Below, piece by piece: positions 5,074-49,330 of a DNA stretch of 64,000 nt; positions within the stretch are counted from its first letter, which is position 1, and each line of letters opens with the position of its first letter. The notes under the pieces were generated by a model. It saw only the letters and a program-made list of their open reading frames with translations, did no database searches and was not told the origin of the DNA. Position numbers and translations under genes: made by a program. This DNA comes from a virus (lineage: Duplodnaviria; Heunggongvirae; Uroviricota; Caudoviricetes), in the IMG/VR virus record IMGVR_UViG_2563366840_000001; one strand, given 5' to 3'.

Positions 5074-8061
5074 ATGAGCTTAAGCGATCAGGTGGTAATG
5101 GCCACCAGCATAGAAACGCTGATCGAGCTGCTAAAGAACTTGCCCGATTATGGGCGGGTTTCGTATGTGGTGACAGCGAAGGGAGACGAGGTAAAAACAG
5201 CGTTTGATATCGTCGATGCCTCAGCTCTTTTGGTATCCAATACTCTGGATGGGAAAATTAATCCTGACTATCCCCAGGAACTTCAACCGCGCGACCGGAC
5301 CCGCGCATCCAGCCTTCTTCAGGTTAACCAGATATCCAAGGATTTGCGGCCTGCTCAGCTTACCGATTCCGGTCTATCCAGCCATGGCGCGCCGATAATT
5401 GGTGAGGACAATGCCGTTGAGTCAGGTAATGGACGGACCATGGGGATCATTAAAGCCTATCAGGACGGCAATGCGGATCGGTATCGTGAGTACCTGATTG
5501 ATCATGCGACCGAATTCGGCATACGACCTGAAAAGGTTGAATCAATGACGGCTCCGGTACTGGTGCGCCGCCGGTTAACTAAGGTTGACCGCGTTCAGTT
5601 TGCCAAGGACTCAAATATTTCTGATCTTCAGGAAATGGCAGCCAGTGAAAAGGCTTTTGTTGATGCCGACAGCATAACACCGGCGATGATGGCGCTTTTT
5701 AACCCGTCAGAAAGCGGAGATCTGCTTAGCCGCAGTAATGACACGTTTATTCGCGGATTTATGACGCAAGTTGGTGCCACACAGGCGGCTGGCCTTGTAA
5801 CTGAAGATGGGCGACCAACACGGCAACTTGTAGACCGTATACAAAACGCGATCTTTGCCAAGGCATATAAGGATGCGCGCCTGGTAAGGATGGTTGCAGA
5901 AGAACCTGATCCGGATATGCGTAATGTTCTGACGGCGCTTAATGCGGCAGCCAATGATTTTGTCCAGATGCAGGCTTTGTCAGGAGAAGCGCACAAGCAG
6001 GCTGTGACAACTATTGTTGATGGCATTGAGACAGCGGATAGCCTCGATAAAAAGGCGCTGGCGGCATTGAAAGATGCGGTAGACCTGGTAAGGCAATCGA
6101 AGGAGTCAGGCCAGCATATTACCGATGTTATTGCTCAGGGGGATATGTTCAGCGAAACGGCCCCGGAAGTGAAAGCACTCGCGTTGTTCATCGTCGCGAA
6201 TAACCGTAGCGCGAAGCGTATGGCCACCGCCTTTAAGTTGATGGCGCAACGTATCAATGATGAGTTACAGCACCAGGGCCAGGCGCTCGGGGATATGTTT
6301 GGCGGCGGCGATGTGTCGTTACAGGATATCCTTCGCCAGGTGTCTCAGGAACTGGAAAACGAAGGCATGCAAGGGATATCCGGCGGTCTTTTCGAGTCCG
6401 TTTCCGGCGGTAGTTACAACGGTGTTGCTCCATATACCAGCTTGCTATTACATCGGGCATCCGGCATCAAAGACATTATTCATCTGATCAGGCTGCTATC
6501 CCGCACCGATCCCCAGGATGAGCAGCTTGTACAAGTGCTTGCGCATTTTGTCCGAATGCCTGTTGCCGACGTAAAAAAATGGTGCCGATTATTCGGTATC
6601 AGCAATTCGTTACTTCGCGGATTGTTAAATCACGCATCCTCCCTTGGGCGCGACGGCTTTGATGAGATAGCGCAGGCGATAAAAAACGGAGATATGCCAC
6701 CAGCTATTGACTGGTTTTCCATTCGCCCAACCAGGGTGAAAGCATTCCTTAGCGCGGCGCATTCGGCATCACCATTGGCAGAAATGGTTCAGAGGTTGTC
6801 GCTCATATTCACAGACCATACCGCGTTGGGTGATCTGACTCTGGACGAGATGAAAGAAGCCTCCATTCAGTGGGCCGATCAACAAAATGAGGTTAACTCT
6901 GACTTCTTGCCAGCATTCAGGAAGGCCGTTAGTAAAGTGGATGATGCCCGTGGAATTCTGAAGGCATTTAAGGCATTGCAAAGTCGGGTTAATAAACATG
7001 TCGGTGATATCGATGGGGTAACGGCGGAAGGCAGGGATATCCTTAAAGAGCACGGCATAACGCCAGAGTTTATTGATGAGATCAGGACGGATATGCAGCG
7101 TGAGGTCGTATCGTCCCTGCAAATCGTAGCCAGAGCGTTGGCGGATGCTAATCCGAAGAGTGCGGCCATTGTTAACCGGGTTATTGGTGATATTGAAGCA
7201 TCGGAGGGCATGGGGGCGCTGAAACTCTTCCTTTCGCGAGCGTTTAATCCTAACGGCAATATTCTCCCCGGCATTATTTGTGAGGCTAAAAAGTATGTCA
7301 GCGAAGAAGAACTTGAGCATCTTGACCAACTACTTAAGCGATTCTCATATAACCCGCAGACACGCTGGCAAATGAATCAGCGAAGTATGGGTTCGGTCCA
7401 CGAGAAAGTGTTATCTGCCATGAACAGTGCGATCGCCAACTCATCCGTATCTGAAGAAAAAGCTCTTGAGTGGGCCGACTCTTTTATCACGGAAGAAGTG
7501 GAAGAAGCCCGCGCTGGACAGAATGGTGGGATAGACCTGCGCAAGGAACTTGCTGATATTTATCGCCTGACCGGCGGTAAAATTTCGACCTTATCAAAGG
7601 TGGTTCACCACCAGGGAAGGGCATATGCAAATCTAAATGGTGTTGTTGCTGTCAATTTGAACGATGAAAATGCAAGTGCACTGTGGCACGAGCTGGGTCA
7701 TCATCTTGAGTACAGTAACCCTGGTTTGTTAGAGAAAGCCCGGTCATTCCTGAAGGCCAATGTTGAAGGGGATAAGCCATCTTTCGTTAATATCGGTGGG
7801 CGTGGCAAGCCTGAATGGTGCTTCAGATCTCGATTGAGTAATATTTATATGGCGAAGGTATACCCGCCAGCCTCAGTAAGTAACACCGGGAAAATTCGGC
7901 AGAAATCACCGACTATTTCCAAAACGTCAGCAACGGAAGTATTCTCTATGGCTCTTCAGTTGTATCATGACAAAGAGGCCGCTGCCGCATCACTGATGAA
8001 TGGTGACGGATTGCTGGAACTGTTATTAGGTGTGGCAAAGGAGCTAAATAATGCAGATTAA
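5074..8061 (+). CDS. ddrB: DdrB, large Dar-operon capsid-associated protein
   Basis: 995-aa ORF following ddrA. Confidence 0.8.
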   Translation: MSLSDQVVMATSIETLIELLKNLPDYGRVSYVVTAKGDEVKTAFDIVDASALLVSNTLDGKINPDYPQELQPRDRTRASSLLQVNQISKDLRPAQLTDSGLSSHGAPIIGEDNAVESGNGRTMGIIKAYQDGNADRYREYLIDHATEFGIRPEKVESMTAPVLVRRRLTKVDRVQFAKDSNISDLQEMAASEKAFVDADSITPAMMALFNPSESGDLLSRSNDTFIRGFMTQVGATQAAGLVTEDGRPTRQLVDRIQNAIFAKAYKDARLVRMVAEEPDPDMRNVLTALNAAANDFVQMQALSGEAHKQAVTTIVDGIETADSLDKKALAALKDAVDLVRQSKESGQHITDVIAQGDMFSETAPEVKALALFIVANNRSAKRMATAFKLMAQRINDELQHQGQALGDMFGGGDVSLQDILRQVSQELENEGMQGISGGLFESVSGGSYNGVAPYTSLLLHRASGIKDIIHLIRLLSRTDPQDEQLVQVLAHFVRMPVADVKKWCRLFGISNSLLRGLLNHASSLGRDGFDEIAQAIKNGDMPPAIDWFSIRPTRVKAFLSAAHSASPLAEMVQRLSLIFTDHTALGDLTLDEMKEASIQWADQQNEVNSDFLPAFRKAVSKVDDARGILKAFKALQSRVNKHVGDIDGVTAEGRDILKEHGITPEFIDEIRTDMQREVVSSLQIVARALADANPKSAAIVNRVIGDIEASEGMGALKLFLSRAFNPNGNILPGIICEAKKYVSEEELEHLDQLLKRFSYNPQTRWQMNQRSMGSVHEKVLSAMNSAIANSSVSEEKALEWADSFITEEVEEARAGQNGGIDLRKELADIYRLTGGKISTLSKVVHHQGRAYANLNGVVAVNLNDENASALWHELGHHLEYSNPGLLEKARSFLKANVEGDKPSFVNIGGRGKPEWCFRSRLSNIYMAKVYPPASVSNTGKIRQKSPTISKTSATEVFSMALQLYHDKEAAAASLMNGDGLLELLLGVAKELNNAD

Positions 8062-28946: not shown

Positions 28947-29978
28947 CTAATCGCCATCTTCCAGCAGGCGCACCATTGCCCCTGTTTCACTATCCAGGTT
29001 ACGGATATAGTTCATGACAATATTTACGTTGGTCCAGCCACCAGCTTGCATGATCTCCGGTATTGAAACTCCGGCACGGGCCATATCTCGCGCGGCTCCG
29101 ACACGGGCACTGTGTCCAGACCAGGCCAGGTACCTCTGGCCAGAGTCATCCTTAGCCCCGTAAATCAATCGGTGAGTTGCTTCAAAAATCCCTTCCAGGG
29201 CGCGAGTTGATAGCTGGCTGGTGGGTGATGGCGAGGCAACACCATTTTTTCTGACCCGGCAAAACAAGTAGTTATTCGGATCATCAGCCACACCAGAGAC
29301 AGAAATCCATCGCTCGACCAGTTTAGTTACCCCCAGGCTAAGTGCCTTCTCTACACCTGCGGTGCTAACCAGCGTTTTCGTTCTGCCAATATGGATTAAC
29401 ATTCTCCCACCGTCAGTACGTGAGATATCTTTAACCCTGATCCTGGCAATTTCGGCTATACGTAACAGGGTGTTATAAGCAATCCCCAGAAATGCCAGAT
29501 TACGTATATCCTGGCAGCGATCGCTATTTTCCATGAGTGAACGAACCTGGTCGAAATCAGTGCGTTCGAACGCTAGTGCCTGTTTTGCACGTTCACCGGC
29601 ATCAACGTTTTCTTTTCGGATCCGCCGCATAACCAGTGAAACAGCATTGCTGTCACTTAGTCGCGGCAGCCCGGACCGACGATGAAGCATGTTTAGCTGG
29701 CCCAAATGTTGCTGGATAGTTTTTACTGCCAGACCGCGCGCCTGAAGATATAGAAGATAATCGCGAACATCTTCAGGTTCTGCGGGAAACCATTTCCGGT
29801 TATTCAACTTGCACCATGCCGCCCATGACCGGCAAACGGACAGAAGCATTTTCCAGGTATGCTCAGAAAACGCCTGGCGATCCCTGAACATGTCCATCAG
29901 GTTCTTGCGAACCTCATCACTCGTTGCATCGACCGGCAATGCAGGCAAATTTTGGTGTACGGTCAGTAAATTGGACAT
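28947..29978 (-). CDS. cre: Cre tyrosine recombinase
   Basis: 343 aa, MSNLLTVHQNLPALPVDATSDEVRKNLMDMF...; near-identical to Cre with a few substitutions. Confidence 0.99.
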   Translation of the reverse strand: MSNLLTVHQNLPALPVDATSDEVRKNLMDMFRDRQAFSEHTWKMLLSVCRSWAAWCKLNNRKWFPAEPEDVRDYLLYLQARGLAVKTIQQHLGQLNMLHRRSGLPRLSDSNAVSLVMRRIRKENVDAGERAKQALAFERTDFDQVRSLMENSDRCQDIRNLAFLGIAYNTLLRIAEIARIRVKDISRTDGGRMLIHIGRTKTLVSTAGVEKALSLGVTKLVERWISVSGVADDPNNYLFCRVRKNGVASPSPTSQLSTRALEGIFEATHRLIYGAKDDSGQRYLAWSGHSARVGAARDMARAGVSIPEIMQAGGWTNVNIVMNYIRNLDSETGAMVRLLEDGD

Positions 29979-31131: not shown

Positions 31132-31983
31132 ATGATAAATTATGTCTACGGCGAACAACTGTACCAGGAGTTCGTCAGCTTCAGGGATCTCTTTCTAAAA
31201 AAAGCTGTTGCACGCGCCCAACACGTTGATGCCGCCAGCAACGGTCGTCCTGTACGCCCGGTTGTCGTTCTACCGTTCAAAGAAACTGACAGCATTCAGG
31301 CTGAAATTGATAAATGGACTTTAATGGCGCGGGAACTGGAACAGTACCCAGACCTCAATATCCCAAAGACTATTTTATATCCAGTGCCTAACATCCTTCG
31401 CGGTGTGCGTAAGGTTACAACTTATCAGACAGAGGCTGTGAACAGCGTCAACATGACCGCTGGCCGCATTATTCATCTGATTGATAAGGACATTCGCATC
31501 CAAAAAAGCGCGGGGATCAATGAGCACAGTGCGAAATACATAGAGAACCTGGAAGCAACAAAAGAGCTAATGAAGCAGTACCCGGAGGATGAAAAATTCC
31601 GTATGCGCGTACACGGCTTTAGCGAAACAATGCTGCGCGTCCATTACATTTCTAGTAGCCCTAACTACAATGATGGTAAATCAGTTAGTTACCATGTGCC
31701 GCTATGTGGTGTGTTTATCTGCGATGAAACTCTCCGTGATGGAATTATCATCAACGGTGAATTCGAGAAAGCAAAATTTAGCCTTTATGACTCCATAGAA
31801 CCGATCATCTGCGACCGCTGGCCGCAAGCAAAAATATATCGCCTGGCAGATATTGAAAATGTAAAAAAACAAATTGCCATCACTCGCGAAGAGAAAAAGG
31901 TTAAGTCAGCCGCATCAGTTACGCGCAGTCGTAAAACCAAGAAGGGGCAGCCAGTAAACGACAACCCCGAAAGCGCGCAATAA
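31132..31983 (+). CDS. c1: C1 master repressor
   Basis: 283 aa, MINYVYGEQLYQEFVSFRDLFLKKAV...; matches P1 C1. Confidence 0.97.
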   Translation: MINYVYGEQLYQEFVSFRDLFLKKAVARAQHVDAASNGRPVRPVVVLPFKETDSIQAEIDKWTLMARELEQYPDLNIPKTILYPVPNILRGVRKVTTYQTEAVNSVNMTAGRIIHLIDKDIRIQKSAGINEHSAKYIENLEATKELMKQYPEDEKFRMRVHGFSETMLRVHYISSSPNYNDGKSVSYHVPLCGVFICDETLRDGIIINGEFEKAKFSLYDSIEPIICDRWPQAKIYRLADIENVKKQIAITREEKKVKSAASVTRSRKTKKGQPVNDNPESAQ

Positions 31984-32015
31984 ATTATGCCCGGCATCAA
32001 CCGGGCATTCTTCCA

Positions 32016-33128
32016 TTATTCAACCGCCACCGGTTTTAACAAGCCAGCATCGAGCAGTTTACGCGTCAACCACTGCTGGCCTTTACCCGTTAATTGAGGC
32101 GTCAACCGTATCTGGTAGCCATCTTCATCATCCAGCACCACTTCTTTCACCGTGAAATACCCCGCGTTGATGTACTGCTGGAACGGCACATTTTTACGTC
32201 CACCGGACGCTATCAGGATGCCGTTCTCCCGTAACCAGGCAAACAGCGCGTTTTGCTTAAGTCCAACAACCTTTGCAAAATTCCCAATCAGGATCCCTTT
32301 AGCTACTGATACCCGGTCGGCAAAATCGACCTTAGGAGCGGCGGCTACCAGCTGCTGATTTAGCTGGTGGGCTTTCTGTTCCAGAAGCTGCTTTTTTTCA
32401 GCCAGTTCGGCAGCCAGGCGTAGGGCTTCTGGTAATGTTTGGGGGATTGCAACCGGTTGCTGTTCTTTTTGCCGGAAGTAGCTGTCTTCCAGTTTTTCAA
32501 AGAATGCCCATGCTTCATTTGTGTCCACGATCTTAGACATGCGTGCCGCTCCGCGCTCGGCCCAGAGAATTACCTGACTTGTATATTTGCTAACCAAGTG
32601 ACTAATAGTCACTAGCCTTTTAAATTCCTTTAATTTTGAACCAGTTAAGAGATAGTAATGCTTACCTTCTTCAAAGCGATCGGGGTTGCGAGACAAATTT
32701 TTACGAATATTCGCTTCATCGGTCCCATACCCTTTAGCAAGAGTCTCAGTTGTCACTACACGCACTCCCAGCCATTCCAGAACGGGAATTTCATCAGACT
32801 GATTCTGAACAACCACCAGCTCCGATTCCTGAACTGAAGGTGCATGAATTTTTTCTGATTTAACGTTAGTTGCTTTCATTCTGTGTGCCTCCTTGCGTGC
32901 TTCGGCTGCGACGGTTGCGTAATTCAGATGACCCTGTTCGAGCAGGTATTCGCGGATATCAGACAACAGAATGCGGTGAACAGCGTTCTTGTCCTTTCTC
33001 CGGTAAAGTTGTTTGGTGATCATGAAGTAGTTGGCTATAACGCCTGGTATATCCCTGGTACTGATACAGGCAGTGTGCTGTTCAATTGCCTCGATCATCT
33101 CTTCACGGGTGACTAATGACGTTCTCAT
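32016..33128 (-). CDS. Antirepressor-like protein (ORF6N plus KilAC/ANT domains)
   Basis: Central ORF6N-like segment NPDRFEEGKHYYLLTGSKLKEFKR and C-terminal ANT-like segment VPFQQYINAGYFTVKE. Confidence 0.65.
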   Translation of the reverse strand: MRTSLVTREEMIEAIEQHTACISTRDIPGVIANYFMITKQLYRRKDKNAVHRILLSDIREYLLEQGHLNYATVAAEARKEAHRMKATNVKSEKIHAPSVQESELVVVQNQSDEIPVLEWLGVRVVTTETLAKGYGTDEANIRKNLSRNPDRFEEGKHYYLLTGSKLKEFKRLVTISHLVSKYTSQVILWAERGAARMSKIVDTNEAWAFFEKLEDSYFRQKEQQPVAIPQTLPEALRLAAELAEKKQLLEQKAHQLNQQLVAAAPKVDFADRVSVAKGILIGNFAKVVGLKQNALFAWLRENGILIASGGRKNVPFQQYINAGYFTVKEVVLDDEDGYQIRLTPQLTGKGQQWLTRKLLDAGLLKPVAVE

Positions 33129-33346
33129 AGTCCCTCCTGAGCAGAAGCGTTAACAGGGAGGCACCAGTAACTGAGAGAATTGCGCGAATCAGTAGAAAAA
33201 CGGGCGGAGAAAATACAGGGTGCATCAGGAAGCTGAGAGCGAGCCTCATCTTCTGTCGGTGCAATAACGAAGTGATAGTGACGTTTCTGGCAGGAGTAAA
33301 AGCGCCAGATAAATTCAGGATGAGTTGGGGTAGGGATAGTAGCCAT
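33125..33346 (-). CDS. Small protein translationally coupled to the antirepressor gene (icd-like position)
   Basis: 73-aa ORF whose stop overlaps the antirepressor ATG (ATGA). Confidence 0.5.
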   Translation of the reverse strand: MATIPTPTHPEFIWRFYSCQKRHYHFVIAPTEDEARSQLPDAPCIFSARFSTDSRNSLSYWCLPVNASAQEGL

Positions 33347-33520
33347 AATGGCAGCCTCCTTTGACTAAGTTAAGGAGCTACCGCGTGAGGTTCCAATCTC
33401 AATGGCGGTAGCACTGACTGGGTTGGAACTACCGGCGTCAAAGGGAACCGGCCTGCCTTTCGGCAGCCCAGCCAGCACTACCATTGATCTCTGAGCTAAA
33501 CGCTACGTATGGCCGTGCGA

Positions 33521-33685
33521 TGGCATGACACAAAAAAAGACGCTTTTGGCGTCTGTGTCGCCTTTGACATTATCCGGGGTTCCAATCCCGGCACCCGTTT
33601 TAATGAGGTGCCTGATAAGCATAAACCGAAAATGCCTCAAGGCGCAAGAGGTCAGGTTCAATGTAACATCGGTAGCTAAAAAACA
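33521..33685 (-). ncRNA. Candidate small structured RNA (c4-like antisense regulator) upstream of icd-like/ant-like genes
   Basis: C1 operator-bearing promoter region, hairpin-rich sequence with a GGTTCCAATC motif repeated in the downstream leader, ends in AGACGC-tttt-GGCGTCT stem plus U-run on the minus strand. Confidence 0.3.
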
Positions 33686-33702
33686 CAATTTATTAGAGCA
33701 AA
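33686..33702 (-). promoter_or_regulatory. C1 operator
   Basis: AATTTATTAGAGCAA, 15/17 to consensus. Confidence 0.65.
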
Positions 33703-33705
33703 TGT

Positions 33706-35190
33706 TCATTCATTAAGCCATGCCAGAGCTTCATCAACCTGCGCTTCGTCTTCGACGCTAAGCACTTCATCCTGGGGAACATAATCCGCCAGCATAGCGA
33801 AACAATATGTATCCCAATGGTCTGGTGAGTGCAGGTTGAGTTTTTTCTTCATATCCTCCTTACTCATCACCTTCCATTGACCTGCGGAGTTAATCCCTAC
33901 AGGGATTTTCGACGCTTCCTCAATAGTTTCATTACCCTTATCCAGTCTCATACGACCAGATTTTACGGCCTCTGCGGCTTGAACGTTGGCATAAGCACGT
34001 TTATCAAAGTACAGGCTCTTATCTTCACGGCTATGCATCTTTTTACCCCAGCGTATACGCTGTACGGTAATACCATAATACTCGTACATCAGATCCGCCG
34101 TTGCTTTACCCAGCCCATCACCGTCTATCGCTATGGTGATATTTGGGAATCGCTCAGGATTACATTCTGCGAAAATTTTGGCGGCAAGCTGCGTTTCTGT
34201 AACGTCTGTGTATTCCAGCATTCGATAGTTGATTACACGGCGTTTATTTCTCTGGCCGGACACCATCATGATATTGATAACGGACTTATCCCGTCCCGTA
34301 CCACCAGCAACGTCCACACATGCAAGCCAGCCCCATCCTTTGGCAATCTTGACTTTCCGCCGCGTCGCACGTTCAACCTCATCACGTCCAAGAAGGAAGC
34401 CATCCTGTGATTTAGGGAATAGTCCGCGTACCTTAATCATGTACATAGGGTTATCACGCCCGCCGTACTCCGCCAGCTTCATTTTGATAAATGCTGGCGT
34501 TACCAGCGGTGATTCCTCACTGTTAAGCGTGATCGCCGTATAAACGCCATCAGGGTTACCAGGACGCTTGGCCAGTTTATGGTGAGTATCGTAGAAATAG
34601 CCGCTTGGGCGTGTAGGCTGTGACAATAATAAGATGCGGTTATCCTGTCCGGTAAGAGCACCAGTGATGATACCGAAAGCTCTATCACTGACACCGGAGG
34701 CTTCATCGATAATATACAGAAGATGATCTGCGTGTTCACCGGCGAGAGCTTCTTCACTTCCCAGACGAAAGCCCTTCGGTACTACAGTCCATACACCTTT
34801 ACCAGTAACCTCATAGAAAGCGGTTTCTGTCAGAACAAAATAATCAGCAAGCCATGGAAAACGGCTGGTGGCAGTAGCCCAGTTTATCTTGATGTACTTG
34901 AATATACCGGTCATTACCTGCTGAATTTTGTTCGCAACGATAATGGCGCGGGCACCGGGATACATGATTATGAACAACATGATCATGATAGAAGTCATGT
35001 CTGATTTCCCGGTACCGTGACCAGACGAAACAGATGTCTTGCTACCCTGTTCCTGCACAGACTCAATAATCAGATCCTGCTGCCAGGTAGGTGTTTTGCC
35101 GAACAAAACATCAGCGGCAGCAATCCAGTCATAACGATATAGCGCCACCAGCTCGCGCCAACGTGGATCCGTTACGCAACTTCTGGCCAT
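33706..35190 (-). CDS. pacB: Terminase large subunit PacB
   Basis: 494-aa ORF overlapping the pacA stop; position as in P1. Confidence 0.85.
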
Positions 35191-36383
35191 TAATCATCAT
35201 CCCCGTATAGCTTGCGGGTAACTTCTTCGTCTTCCTCCTCGTCTTCGTCCAGGTCTTGTTCCAGCCATGGGTCGTTTGATACACCTTCAGTATCAACATC
35301 TCCATAACCGCCTGTATCAACGATATCGGCGATTTCTTCCCTACGCTGCTCAATCCACAATGCGGCATCGGCGCGGCGGTTGGCGGCCCGTTCTCGCGCA
35401 ACTTTGTCCAGATCTTCAAGAGAAGGGCCACCGACGGCTGTTTGCCTTTCCTCATCATCGGTATTGGTCTTAGGAGCACGCAGATCGGCTTTGATTTGCT
35501 CCAGCATCAGGGGCGGAACTTTCCCACCATGCGCCTCGATGAATTCAGCTGCTTCCAGCACTGACCAGTTATTTTCACGCTTTCGTTCGTATGCCAGCTT
35601 AACAATGCCAGCTTGCCCCATAGACAAAGCGTGCTTTTCCGCCTCCCGGCTTTCTTTTCGATAGTTATTCCGGATGCTGTAAATGGTGTTGATCAGACTG
35701 CTTATCTGCGCGGAACAGCTGTTTAGCATGCTCGCGATACGGTATTCAGGCGGAGTACCTCCATCATCGTCTTTTTGCTGATCGCGCATTTCCTGCACCA
35801 GGCGAATACACGTATCCCTGGCGTTCTCCAGCATAAGGAGATGAGAAAGAGACTTTTCAAGAAGAGTGGTTTCCAGAACATCGGCCCCGGACCGACGCAA
35901 CATAGCGCGCGCGGCCTTCCGCGCTTCAACGTTATCTATCAGGTAATCGCCAGCTTCGAATTCAAAGCGTTCACCATCATCATCCAGGGTGTCGCGTTCC
36001 AGACGATCACGTAAGGTCCGGTGGGCGCGGGTGATCACGTCATGATCATCTGAACGATCATTTATGCGCTTATTTTGGCGCTTCGCATTCTCGACTGCGG
36101 CACTGACAACGGCATTAACTCTCTGTTTTTCCGCTATTTCAGCCGCAATATGATCACCTGCATGTTGATCATTAGAGTGATCAATGATCATGCCTTTTAG
36201 TGGCTTCCTGACTGGCTTATTTGGCTTGCGGCTGTCCGCAGTCCTGGTGTCTTCTTTGAAGGCACGGAGATAACGACGTGCGGTATTAGGGTTAAGATTA
36301 AACTCGGCGGCATACTGTGCGATGGTGTAACCACCATCTCGCGCCAGGCGAGCAAAATTCTTCTTGTGATCGTCCCAGGTCAC
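35190..36383 (-). CDS. pacA: Terminase small subunit PacA
   Basis: 397 aa with acidic C-terminus; contains the pac hexamer cluster in its 5 prime third. Confidence 0.9.
36030..36190. other. pac packaging site (TGATCA/G hexamer clusters)
   Basis: Three to four TGATCA-type hexamers at 36004-36061 and four at 36151-36190 flanking a roughly 90-bp spacer, each containing a GATC Dam site. Confidence 0.85.
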
Positions 36384-48116: not shown

Positions 48117-49007
48117 TCAGGCTGCCAGATCATCGTTTCCGATGGAAGCATAATAAGCTTTTTCTGCTTCTGCCGGAGGAGTATGGCCCAGCCTTTCCAG
48201 CAATCGTCGATTGTTATACCAGTCCACCCACGTGAGTGTGGCCAGTTCCACTTCTGCACGGTTTTTCCAGCTCTTACGGTGTATTACCTCCGCTTTGTAA
48301 AGACCATTGATGCTCTCCGCCATCGCGTTGTCATACGAGTCGCCTGTACTTCCTGTTGATGCCAGTAATCCGGCTTCCTTAAGCCGCTGTGTGTAGGCCA
48401 GCGATACATACTGAGAACCTTTATCACTGTGATGGACCGTGCCGGACGGTCGACGGGCCCATAACGCCTGCTCCAGTGCATCCAGCACGAATGTCGTTTC
48501 CATGGACGATGAGACCCGCCACCCCACGATGTATCCGGCAAACACATCAATGATGAACGCCACATAGACGAAGCCCCGCCATGTGCTGACGTAAGTAAAA
48601 TCAGCCACCCACAGCTGGTCAGGTCGTTCTGCCACGAACTGACGGTTTACGCGGTCGCCTGCGGCAACGGCTTTCCGGCTGATGGTCGTACGGACCTTTT
48701 TACCCCGGAGAACACCGGCAAGTCCCATAACCGCCATGAGACGTGCCACAGTGCATCTGGCCACTCTGATACCTTCCCGTAACAACTGACGCCAGACTTT
48801 ACGCACACCGTATACCTTGTGATTTTCATCGTATACGCGCTGTATCTCTTTCTTCAGCCAGTCATCGCGCTGCGCACGGGCACTGCGTTTATCCGGATGA
48901 TGTCGCTGTTGCTGACAGTGGTAATACGTTGACGGGGCAATATGCAGTTCGCTGCATAGCGGTCCGACCCCGTACTGCTCACGCAGCTTATCCAGCAGTG
49001 GCATCAT
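48117..49007 (-). CDS. IS3-family transposase OrfB (DDE catalytic domain), expressed by -1 frameshift from OrfA
   Basis: DDE integrase core; frame overlaps the orfA end at the A6 slippery sequence. Confidence 0.9.
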
Positions 49008-49330
49008 TTTTTCCAGAGGCGGTCGAACTCCGCCTTCGCAAAATAAGCGGAAGCCTGGCGAAGGATATCGTTACTGCGGCGCAGTTCACGATTTTCACGT
49101 TCCAGCTCTTTCAGACGCTGACGTTCAGCGGTGGTGAGCCCTCCATCACCGCCCCCGGTATCCCGCTCATGCTGGCGAACCCAGACACGCAGAGTCTCCG
49201 GCGTACAGCCAATCTTTGGAGCAATGGAACAAATTGTCGCCCATTGTGAGTCATATTCGCTCTGACTTTCCAGAACCATACGGACTGCCCGTTGACGGAC
49301 TTCGGGGGAAAAACGAGTATTTTTAGTCAT
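49004..49330 (-). CDS. IS3-family transposase OrfA
   Basis: 108 aa with HTH and leucine zipper; ends WKK at an AAAAAA run. Confidence 0.9.

What the first reader, a model, noticed from the sequence alone, without database searches (positions are those of the whole stretch)
32016..33705. immI-like antirepressor module placed beside immC
Between c1 and pacB lies a C1 operator and promoter, a hairpin-rich untranslated region ending in a terminator, a leader with a perfect 8-bp stem (GCTACCGC...GCGGTAGC), then a 73-aa ORF coupled to a 370-aa ORF6N/ANT-domain antirepressor-like gene. The loop motif GGTTCCAATC occurs twice. This resembles the c4 antisense RNA / icd / ant design of P1 immI, which I recall mapping elsewhere in P1; here it is convergent with c1.
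Basis: partly seen in the sequence, partly recalled or inferred. Interest (0 to 1): 0.6.

Follow-up and report, generated by a model that had tools for sequence, protein, structure and literature searches.

The report
Second C4–Icd–Ant antirepressor operon beside c1
This P1-like phage-plasmid carries, wedged between its repressor gene c1 and the packaging gene pacB, a complete extra copy of the known P1 "immI" circuit, which makes it a correct but fairly ordinary finding, because the same insert sits in about a third of P1-like plasmids and has been noted before.

Summary
The window is a P1-like phage-plasmid. P1 itself has only 24 nt between the pacB and c1 stop codons. This window has 1,722 nt there, forming a minus-strand operon:
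- a C1 operator at 33686-33702
- P1-like promoter hexamers
- a terminated leader that matches Rfam isrK and carries the a1/b1 sites (33611-33533)
- a C4 antisense RNA gene (33488-33401, 77 bits)
- the a2 and b2 target sites, with b2 overlapping the Shine-Dalgarno sequence
- a 73-codon icd (80% identical to P1 Icd)
- an ATGA-coupled ant of 370 aa (ORF6N + KilAC domains), with a P1-like internal Ant2 start

It is not the 33690-33520 stretch, which is the a1/b1 decoy-like leader.

Across 20 distinct copies, the C4 loops and all four target sites co-vary with 99.9-100% pairing and fall into five specificity types. None of them matches the canonical immI sites.

RCS47, JL22 and 673R5 carry both this module and the canonical immI. 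About 285 of 5,426 complete E. coli genomes have this insert. RCS47's annotation and Venturini et al. 2019 already record "ant between pacB and c1".

Verdict: a new member of a known kind, of low to moderate interest.

The parts
33686..33702 (-). C1 repressor operator (TTTGCTCTAATAAATTG), starting 4 nt after the pacB stop codon (TGA at 33708-33706)
   Evidence: It matches the P1 operator consensus at 15 of 17 positions. The window has 6 such sites against 0.02 expected. It aligns with P1 Oc4/Op51. The core is conserved in all 60 copies, while the bases between the pacB stop and the operator vary.
33660..33688 (-). Candidate operator-overlapped promoter (TTGTGT-17 nt-TACATT), at the position of P1 P2c4/P51a
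   Evidence: Assigned by alignment to the annotated P1 promoter. It was not found by the strict consensus scan, so this is an inference from position.
33612..33640 (-). Second candidate promoter (TTGAGG-17 nt-TATCAG), at the position of P1 P1c4/P51b. The -10 hexamer is weak.
   Evidence: Assigned by alignment to P1. Inference only.
33533..33611 (-). Leader RNA of the IsrK / c4-a1b1 type. Target site a1 (UUGGAAC, 33585-33579) sits in a hairpin loop. Target site b1 (GUCAAAGG, 33568-33561) is in a single-stranded linker. An intrinsic terminator follows (stem 33554-33538, then a T run).
   Evidence: Rfam isrK matches at 62.6 bits (gathering score 50). The P1 leader at the same position matches Rfam c4-a1b1 at 51 bits and isrK at 35 bits. 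The terminator was found. The a1 and b1 sites co-vary with the C4 loops, with 99.9% of cells paired.
33401..33488 (-). C4 antisense RNA gene. The b' loop is CCUUUGAC (33444-33437). The a' stretch is GUUCCAA (33429-33423).
   Evidence: Rfam C4 (RF01695) matches at 77.1 bits over the full model, E = 2.4e-13. The intramolecular helices are 100% paired across 20 distinct sequences, and 9 pairs change on both sides.
33390..33396 (-). Target site a2 (UUGGAAC), 4 nt downstream of the 3' end of the C4 model match
   Evidence: It is complementary to C4 a' over 7 bp. Four of the 7 pairs change on both sides across the types, and all cells are paired.
33355..33365 (-). Target site b2 (GUCAAAGG, 33365-33358) overlapping the icd Shine-Dalgarno sequence (AAGGAGG, 33361-33355)
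   Evidence: It is complementary to C4 b' over 8 bp. Three pairs change on both sides, and all cells are paired. The sequence was read directly.
33377..33412 (-). It is an alternative to the C4 closing helix.
   Evidence: Sequence. Seven of 8 bp are kept in the divergent type, with one compensatory pair. The stem is absent from the minimum-free-energy fold. P1 has an analogous 5+3 bp pairing, seen by reading the sequence.
33125..33346 (-). icd-like gene, 73 codons
   Evidence: It is 80% identical to P1 Icd and has the same length. NCBIfam phage_ICD_like matches at 49.8 bits against a cut-off of 25. It is 73 aa in all 39 copies that could be evaluated.
32016..33128 (-). ant-like antirepressor gene, 370 aa. 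Its start overlaps the icd stop (ATGA). An internal Ant2-like start is at Met84 (32879), preceded by AAGGAGG-N8.
   Evidence: Pfam finds ORF6N (residues 117-200) and ANT/KilAC (residues 258-359). PHROG 63 'anti-repressor Ant' matches at E = 2e-131. It is 56% identical to P1 Ant1 overall; the N- and C-terminal parts align closely and the middle does not. The context of the internal start is nearly identical to that of P1 ant2.
31987..32008 (.). GC-rich hairpin between the convergent ant and c1 stop codons, probably a two-way terminator
   Evidence: Terminator-like site found. The c1 ORF ends at 31983 and the ant ORF ends at 32016.

Best explanation
The segment is a complete second immI-type operon on the minus strand, inserted between pacB and c1 of a P1-like phage-plasmid.

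Transcription starts at promoter(s) overlapped by a C1 operator. It first produces a structured leader that displays two short sites, a1 and b1, and ends in an intrinsic terminator. Transcripts that read through the terminator contain the C4 RNA, a second pair of sites (a2 and b2), and then icd and ant.

By analogy with P1, C4 is cut out of the transcript. Its two exposed stretches pair with a2 and b2. Because b2 covers the icd ribosome-binding site, icd is not translated. ant is translationally coupled to icd through the ATGA overlap, and in P1 ant is also subject to Rho polarity, so ant stays off.

When C1 repression or the C4 supply fails, Icd and Ant1/Ant2-like proteins are made. Ant then inactivates the C1 repressor.

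The short terminated leader, which carries a1 and b1, probably acts as a decoy or modulator for C4, as IsrK does in Gifsy-1.

The C4 specificity differs from that of the canonical immI, so the two circuits should work independently.

Shown here: the sequence anatomy, the family matches, the co-variation of the RNA-RNA pairings, and the conservation and distribution of the module. Inferred: the transcription start sites, C4 processing, translational repression, the role of the leader, and Ant binding to C1.
For: - Rfam C4 matches at 77.1 bits and isrK at 62.6 bits, both above their gathering scores.
- P1's own immI gives the same pair of RNA matches in the same order.
- The layout is colinear with annotated P1 immI: operator, two promoters, a1 and b1, c4, a2 and b2, icd, ant1/ant2.
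- A C1 operator is present.
- Icd is 80% identical to P1 Icd, has the same 73 aa, and matches NCBIfam Icd-like.
- Ant has homologous N- and C-terminal parts and a conserved internal Ant2 start.
- icd and ant overlap by ATGA.
- In 20 distinct copies from 60 loci, the C4 helices, a'-a2 and b'-b2 are 100% paired. Sixteen pairs change on both sides. None of 500 shuffles reaches the observed pairing, and slid controls give 26-50% pairing.
- a1 and b1 pair with the C4 loops in 99.9% of cells.
- There are five concordant specificity types and one recombinant.
- Only cognate C4/target combinations give 15 of 15 pairs. Against the canonical immI sites the best score is 11 of 15.
- icd is intact in 39 of 39 copies, and ant is 364-372 aa in 33 of 39.
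- RCS47, JL22 and 673R5 carry both this module and the canonical immI.
Against: - There are no expression data. No promoter passes the strict consensus scan, and the second -10 hexamer (TATCAG) is weak.
- An intrinsic terminator sits between the promoters and C4, so C4 and ant expression depends on read-through. That has not been shown here.
- The middle third of Ant is replaced by an ORF6N domain that Pfam does not detect in P1 Ant1. Binding to C1 is therefore not assured.
- ant is a pseudogene or truncated in some close relatives.
- The number of independent co-variation events is small: three a-types and three b-types.
- Whether the source genome also has the canonical immI cannot be told, because that part of the map lies outside the window.
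Confidence: 0.78

Rival explanations
1. The module works in the IsrK (Gifsy-1) manner rather than the P1 manner. The short terminated leader RNA is the main regulator. It acts in trans on the read-through transcript to switch on translation of the upstream ORF and of ant. The 'C4' stretch serves mainly as a cis structure within the mRNA.
For: The leader matches Rfam isrK above the gathering score and has a terminator. In Gifsy-1, short IsrK activates the read-through isrK-orf45-anrP mRNA, and a processed species of about 80 nt arises from the orf45 region (PMC4825925). The leader shows a1 in a hairpin loop and b1 in a single-stranded linker, which suits a decoy for C4 (alignment).
Against: The C4 stretch matches the full Rfam C4 model. 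Its loops co-vary with a2 and b2 as well as with a1 and b1, as expected for a trans-acting antisense RNA. Layout and icd are closer to P1 immI (80% Icd identity) than to the Gifsy-1 locus as its paper describes it; no Gifsy-1 sequence was compared here. The two readings are compatible: the leader may act as an anti-antisense decoy.
Confidence: 0.12
2. The module is functional, but its Ant is aimed at the repressor of a competing phage or plasmid, or at another target, rather than at the element's own C1. It would then be a weapon or cross-induction device, not part of the element's own lysis-lysogeny switch.
For: The central domain of Ant is swapped to ORF6N, which Pfam does not detect in P1 Ant1. 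These elements already have a canonical Ant1/2. C4 specificity at this locus is polymorphic.
Against: The N-terminal part (about the first 90 residues) and the C-terminal part (from about residue 227) align closely with P1 Ant1, and the last 90 or so residues are almost identical. The internal Ant2 start is conserved. The operon carries a C1 operator, which ties it to the element's own repressor.
Confidence: 0.08
3. The segment is an inert relic of recombination with another phage, carried along without function.
For: ant has an internal stop in the closest plasmid match and is truncated in 673R5. Six of 39 copies have an ant of unusual length.
Against: icd is intact in 39 of 39 copies and ant is full length in 33 of 39. 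Compensatory changes maintain both the RNA structure and the RNA-RNA pairing. The operator is conserved. The insert is present in about 285 complete E. coli genomes.
Confidence: 0.03

Closest known systems
Phage P1/P7 immI operon (Oc4/Op51, P51a/b, a1 b1, c4, a2 b2, icd, ant1/ant2)
   Same: The order of all parts is the same. Both have a C1 operator over the first promoter, a C4 RNA of the same Rfam family, two pairs of 7-nt and 8-nt targets, and b2 over the icd ribosome-binding site. Both have a 73-codon icd, an ATGA overlap with ant, and an internal Ant2 start with an almost identical context. The specificity loops are polymorphic, as they are between P1 and P7.
   Different: The location differs: here it lies between pacB and c1 and is convergent with c1, whereas in P1 it lies between sim and kilA-repL. 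The C4 loops and targets are different and non-cognate. The leader matches isrK better than c4-a1b1. The central part of Ant is an ORF6N domain. In the three sequenced relatives it is present in addition to the canonical immI.
The same insert in P1-like phage-plasmids RCS47, JL22, vB_EcoM-673R5 and pTZ20_1P
   Same: It sits at the same position and is 93-96% identical. RCS47 annotates 'ant' there. Venturini et al. 2019 (PMC6906374) state that two short ORFs and an ant gene are inserted between pacB and c1, as in RCS47.
   Different: Those records and that paper treat it as protein genes only. In none of these records is C4, the leader or the operator annotated at this locus. The window has the rarest of the five specificity types, shared with one of the 55 IMG/VR loci.
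IsrK-orf45-AnrP locus of the Salmonella Gifsy-1 prophage, and the isrK + C4 + ant modules of Stx phages
   Same: Both have a terminated leader sRNA of the isrK family, followed by a structured RNA region and a translationally coupled antirepressor gene. Stx phage F039 is annotated with 'C4 antisense RNA' and 'isrK' side by side.
   Different: As described in the Gifsy-1 paper, that locus has orf45 rather than an icd-like gene and no P1 C1 operator, and the published mechanism is activation by the short RNA; I did not inspect Gifsy-1 or Stx-phage sequence for these features. Identity to the Stx-phage copies is only about 69%.
Phage P4 CI immunity RNA
   Same: The C4 half of the query matches the P4 cI region at 73.5% identity (H183). 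From my own knowledge, P4 CI is a small RNA processed from a leader transcript that pairs with repeated target sites.
   Different: From my own knowledge, P4 CI causes transcription termination and does not control an icd-ant pair. This was not tested here.

Membership tests
P1-type immI operon | C1 operator overlapping the operon's promoter | tested here: met
   The operator at 33686-33702 matches the consensus at 15 of 17 positions. The window has 6 sites against 0.02 expected. It aligns with P1 Oc4, and -35-like TTGTGT overlaps its end. Actual C1 binding was not tested.
P1-type immI operon | C4 antisense RNA gene (Rfam RF01695) | tested here: met
   77.1 bits against a gathering score of 45, over the full model. 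Helices are 100% paired, with 9 compensatory pairs.
P1-type immI operon | Target sites a2 and b2 downstream of c4 are complementary to the C4 loops, with b2 covering the icd ribosome-binding site. Sites a1 and b1 lie upstream. | tested here: met
   The pairings are 7 bp and 8 bp. Pairing is 100% for a2/b2 and 99.9% for a1/b1 over 20 distinct sequences. Seven of the inter-site pairs change on both sides. b2 overlaps AAGGAGG.
P1-type immI operon | icd of 73 codons, translationally coupled to ant | tested here: met
   80% identity to P1 Icd. NCBIfam matches at 49.8 bits against a cut-off of 25. ATGA overlap.
P1-type immI operon | Nested Ant1 and Ant2 products from one reading frame | tested here: met
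   Met84 is preceded by AAGGAGGCACACAGA, against AAGGAGGCACATAGA in P1. This is evidence at the sequence level only.
P1-type immI operon | Ant binds and inactivates C1. C4 is processed by RNase P. Rho polarity acts on ant. | not testable with these tools
   These need biochemistry or genetics. The mechanism as described for P1 is taken from PMC8198154 and from my own knowledge of the Citron & Schuster and Biere et al. papers.
P1-type immI operon | Map position next to sim and kilA-repL | tested here: not met
   It lies between pacB and c1. No sim, kilA or repL sequence is present in the window.
IsrK sRNA (Rfam RF01394) | Sequence and structure match above the gathering score, with an intrinsic terminator | tested here: met
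   62.6 bits against a gathering score of 50. Terminator found.
IsrK sRNA (Rfam RF01394) | Hfq binding, and trans-activation of the read-through mRNA | not testable with these tools
   Known only from Gifsy-1 experiments (PMC4825925).
Phage antirepressor, KilAC/ANT family (PF03374) | C-terminal ANT domain | tested here: met
   109.6 bits against a cut-off of 25.3. ORF6N also matches at 61.6 bits.

The most novel reading that the evidence does not exclude
The second immI may be an independent antirepressor switch that does not cross-react with the canonical one. Its rapidly reassorting C4/target specificities (at least five types at this one locus) would decide which co-resident or incoming P1-like plasmids can induce or exclude each other. 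The terminated a1/b1 leader would act as a sponge for C4. This would give P1-like phage-plasmids a two-channel RNA-coded system for recognising self and non-self, beside the master repressor gene.
Probability: 0.2. Interest if true: 0.55.

Novelty: new member of a known kind. Interest (0 to 1): 0.3.

Why it matters
P1-like phage-plasmids are common carriers of resistance genes in E. coli and Salmonella. Whether they stay as plasmids or turn lytic depends on C1 and its antagonists.

About a third of these elements have a second Ant circuit, gated by its own antisense RNA and sitting next to c1, and the sequenced relatives examined also carry the canonical immI. The RNA specificities of the second circuit do not match those of the canonical immI. 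Immunity, heteroimmunity and cross-induction among these elements are therefore probably more complicated than the P1 textbook model.

There is also a practical point for annotation. The C4 gene at this locus is routinely labelled as a protein ("ash family protein"), and the leader is labelled as a hypothetical ORF.

Tried and rejected
- I tried to find the exact source record with 25 kb of the window. The best plasmid hit covers only 87% at 96% identity, so I cannot say whether the source genome has the canonical immI. That part of the P1 map lies outside the window.
- The consensus promoter scan found nothing in the leader. The promoters are assigned only by alignment to P1.
- I aligned the second-locus copies together with canonical immI copies (A3). 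The loop columns were out of register, so I used the 20 second-locus sequences alone for pair counts (A4).
- I considered a protein-coding reading of the C4 stretch, which PGAP calls "ash family protein" (33365-33484). I rejected it for three reasons. NCBIfam gives no match. The frame is not kept between C4 types, and in one type it runs into icd. The nucleotide changes are compensatory for RNA helices.
- The 68-aa ORF at 33503-33709 (JL22 gp120) spans the operator, the promoters and a T run that varies from 6 to 9 T between copies. I rejected it as a gene.
- The 8-bp stem as an independent leader hairpin is not in the minimum-free-energy fold. I kept it only as a possible alternative conformer.
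- Three literature calls failed because a search term was too short, and one similarity search failed because the query was one base over the limit.
- The JL22 paper does not mention the module.
Full report
**Context.** The window is a P1-like phage-plasmid. cre lies at 28947-29978 (-), c1 at 31132-31983 (+), pacB at 33706-35190 (-) and pacA at 35190-36383 (-). In P1 the stop codons of pacB and c1 are 24 nt apart. Here they are 1,722 nt apart, and the finding is that extra segment. The rest of the window runs from the darA/lyd/cin region at one end to ban at the other. P1's own immI, at about 48-50 kb on the P1 map, therefore falls outside the window. No sim, kilA or repL sequence is present.

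**Checking the observation.** All the listed features are there.
- A 17-nt C1 operator (TTTGCTCTAATAAATTG) lies at 33686-33702 on the minus strand and starts 4 nt after the pacB stop codon. It matches the consensus at 15 of 17 positions. The window has six such sites where 0.02 are expected.
- The strict promoter scan found nothing. However, TTGTGT-17-TACATT (33688-33660) and TTGAGG-17-TATCAG (33640-33612) align with P1's annotated P2c4 and P1c4 promoters.
- A structured leader ends in a terminator (stem 33554-33538 followed by a T run).
- The 8-bp stem, the ATGA-coupled 73-aa and 370-aa ORFs, and the ORF6N and ANT domains are as described.
- GGTTCCAATC occurs exactly twice, against 0.16 expected.

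**What the parts are.** Rfam at gathering thresholds finds a C4 antisense RNA at 33488-33401 (77.1 bits; gathering score 45). It also finds an isrK-family RNA at 33611-33533 (62.6 bits; gathering score 50). P1's own immI gives C4 plus, in the leader, c4-a1b1 (51 bits) and a weaker isrK match (35 bits). The isrK-like element is therefore the counterpart of P1's a1/b1 leader.

The 73-aa protein is 80% identical to P1 Icd and has the same length. It matches NCBIfam Icd-like.

The 370-aa protein is 56% identical to P1 Ant1. The N-terminal part (roughly the first 90 residues) and the C-terminal part (from about residue 227) align closely. The middle is replaced by an ORF6N domain, which Pfam does not detect in P1 Ant1. 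An internal Met84, preceded by AAGGAGG-N8, mirrors the P1 ant2 start almost base for base.

Reading the minus strand, two sites lie in the leader. Site a1 (UUGGAAC, 33585-33579) is in a hairpin loop and b1 (GUCAAAGG, 33568-33561) is in a linker. The same two motifs recur after C4: a2 at 33396-33390 and b2 at 33365-33358, where b2 overlaps the icd Shine-Dalgarno sequence AAGGAGG. They are complementary to two exposed stretches of C4: a' (GUUCCAA, 33429-33423) and b' (CCUUUGAC, 33444-33437). This is the P1 design, with a 7-nt a site and an 8-nt b site.

**Evidence that the RNA circuit is under selection.** An exact-pattern scan of IMG/VR returned 55 loci. In all those with enough upstream sequence, the leader starts right after the pacB stop.

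Tabulating a1, b1, the two C4 stretches, a2 and b2 gives five fully concordant types, with 28, 12, 7, 6 and 2 copies. There is also one recombinant in which only a1 is mismatched. The window has the rarest type.

On 20 distinct sequences, the C4 helices together with a'-a2 and b'-b2 are 100% paired. Sixteen pairs change on both sides. None of 500 shuffles reaches the observed pairing, and slid controls give 26-50% pairing. With a1 and b1 in place of a2 and b2, pairing is 99.9%.

The number of independent events is small: three a variants and three b variants. However, the two a variants and two b variants of the main group occur in all four combinations, and each stays matched to its C4 stretch.

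icd is 73 aa in 39 of 39 copies. ant is 364-372 aa in 33 of 39.

The 8-bp stem keeps 7 of 8 pairs in the divergent type, with one compensatory change. It is not in the minimum-free-energy fold. I treat it as a possible alternative conformer of unknown role.

**Relation to the canonical immI.** RCS47, JL22 and 673R5 carry this module between c1 and pacB and also carry a P1/P7-type immI at the usual place. The canonical sites (a = UUGACAG or UUAGCAG; b = GUUAGUGA, GAUUGUGA or ACGAAUGA) do not match the second-locus C4 stretches.

Only cognate combinations give 15 of 15 pairs. Second-locus against canonical gives at most 11 of 15. P1 against P7, which from my own knowledge are heteroimmune, gives 12 of 15. 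Some second-locus types differ from each other by only one or two pairs, so cross-reaction among them cannot be excluded.

**Distribution and prior knowledge.** The full segment is found in 4 phage records and 299 plasmid records. It is also in 285 of 5,426 complete E. coli genomes, out of 812 genomes with any match. That is roughly a third of P1-like elements.

RCS47's GenBank record annotates "ant" there. Venturini et al. 2019 state that two short ORFs and an ant gene are inserted between pacB and c1, as in RCS47 (PMC6906374). RefSeq names the genes "antirepressor KilAC", "Icd-like" and "ash family protein".

A Stx phage record already annotates C4 and isrK side by side. In the papers I could search, I found no description of this locus as a full operon with an operator, a leader, C4, icd and ant, or of its specificity types.

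**Mechanism.** The best explanation is the P1 immI mechanism (as summarised in PMC8198154) applied to a second, independent copy. C1 limits transcription. C4 blocks icd translation at b2, and so blocks ant. Loss of either control releases Icd and Ant.

The terminator between the promoters and C4, and the leader's isrK match, suggest an additional layer like the one shown for Gifsy-1 IsrK. There, the short terminated RNA acts on the read-through transcript (PMC4825925). Here the obvious form of that layer is a decoy for C4.

These steps are inferred. Only the anatomy, homology, co-variation and conservation are shown.

**Verdict.** Its interpretation is supported, with a correction of which segment is the antisense RNA. 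The element is a new member of a well-known kind, already recorded at this position. The polymorphic specificity, which does not match the canonical immI, is a modest addition.

Noticed in passing
window 60240-64000: From about 60240 to the end, the window matches Mu-like phages (Phi06_2974 B at 99.7%; PhiKM GemA and late regulator C). Bases 60001-60239 are P1 ban. This looks like a Mu-like prophage inserted in the ban helicase gene of the plasmid.
   Followed up: no
window 48933-49049 (-): Rfam ALIL pseudoknot at 120 bits. This is the frameshift element of IS3-family insertion sequences, so an IS element sits in this part of the plasmid.
   Followed up: no
window 33365-33484 (-): RefSeq annotates a 39-aa 'ash family protein' in close relatives exactly over the C4 RNA gene. 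NCBIfam gives no match here. The frame is not conserved between C4 types. The same stretch matches the phage P4 cI RNA region. The protein call is probably spurious.
   Followed up: partly
L036:5031-5315 (IMGVR_UViG_2778261639_000014): This is a recombinant copy. The leader site a1 is of the UUGAGAC type, but C4 a' and a2 are of the UUGGAAC type. It is the only discordant copy among 56.
   Followed up: partly
L022 (IMGVR_UViG_2698536372_000019), reverse-strand positions 7825 and 9391: Two identical copies of the module start, including the last bases of pacB, lie 1,566 nt apart. This is either a tandem duplication or an assembly artefact.
   Followed up: partly
L065 (NZ_CP019262.1) 417-1529; L003 3461-4234: ant at this locus is a pseudogene with an internal stop in the closest plasmid match, and is truncated to 257 aa in phage 673R5. 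Six of 39 IMG/VR copies have an ant of unusual length.
   Followed up: partly
L061 (JL22 canonical immI) against L004 (P1) and L063 (P7): The canonical immI of JL22 combines the P1-type a site (UUGACAG) with the P7-type b site (GAUUGUGA). 673R5 has a third b type (ACGAAUGA). The canonical locus therefore reassorts its two specificity sites as well.
   Followed up: partly
window 33533-33560 and alignment A4 columns 80-88: The T run of the leader terminator varies from 6 to 9 T between copies. This could alter termination efficiency.
   Followed up: no
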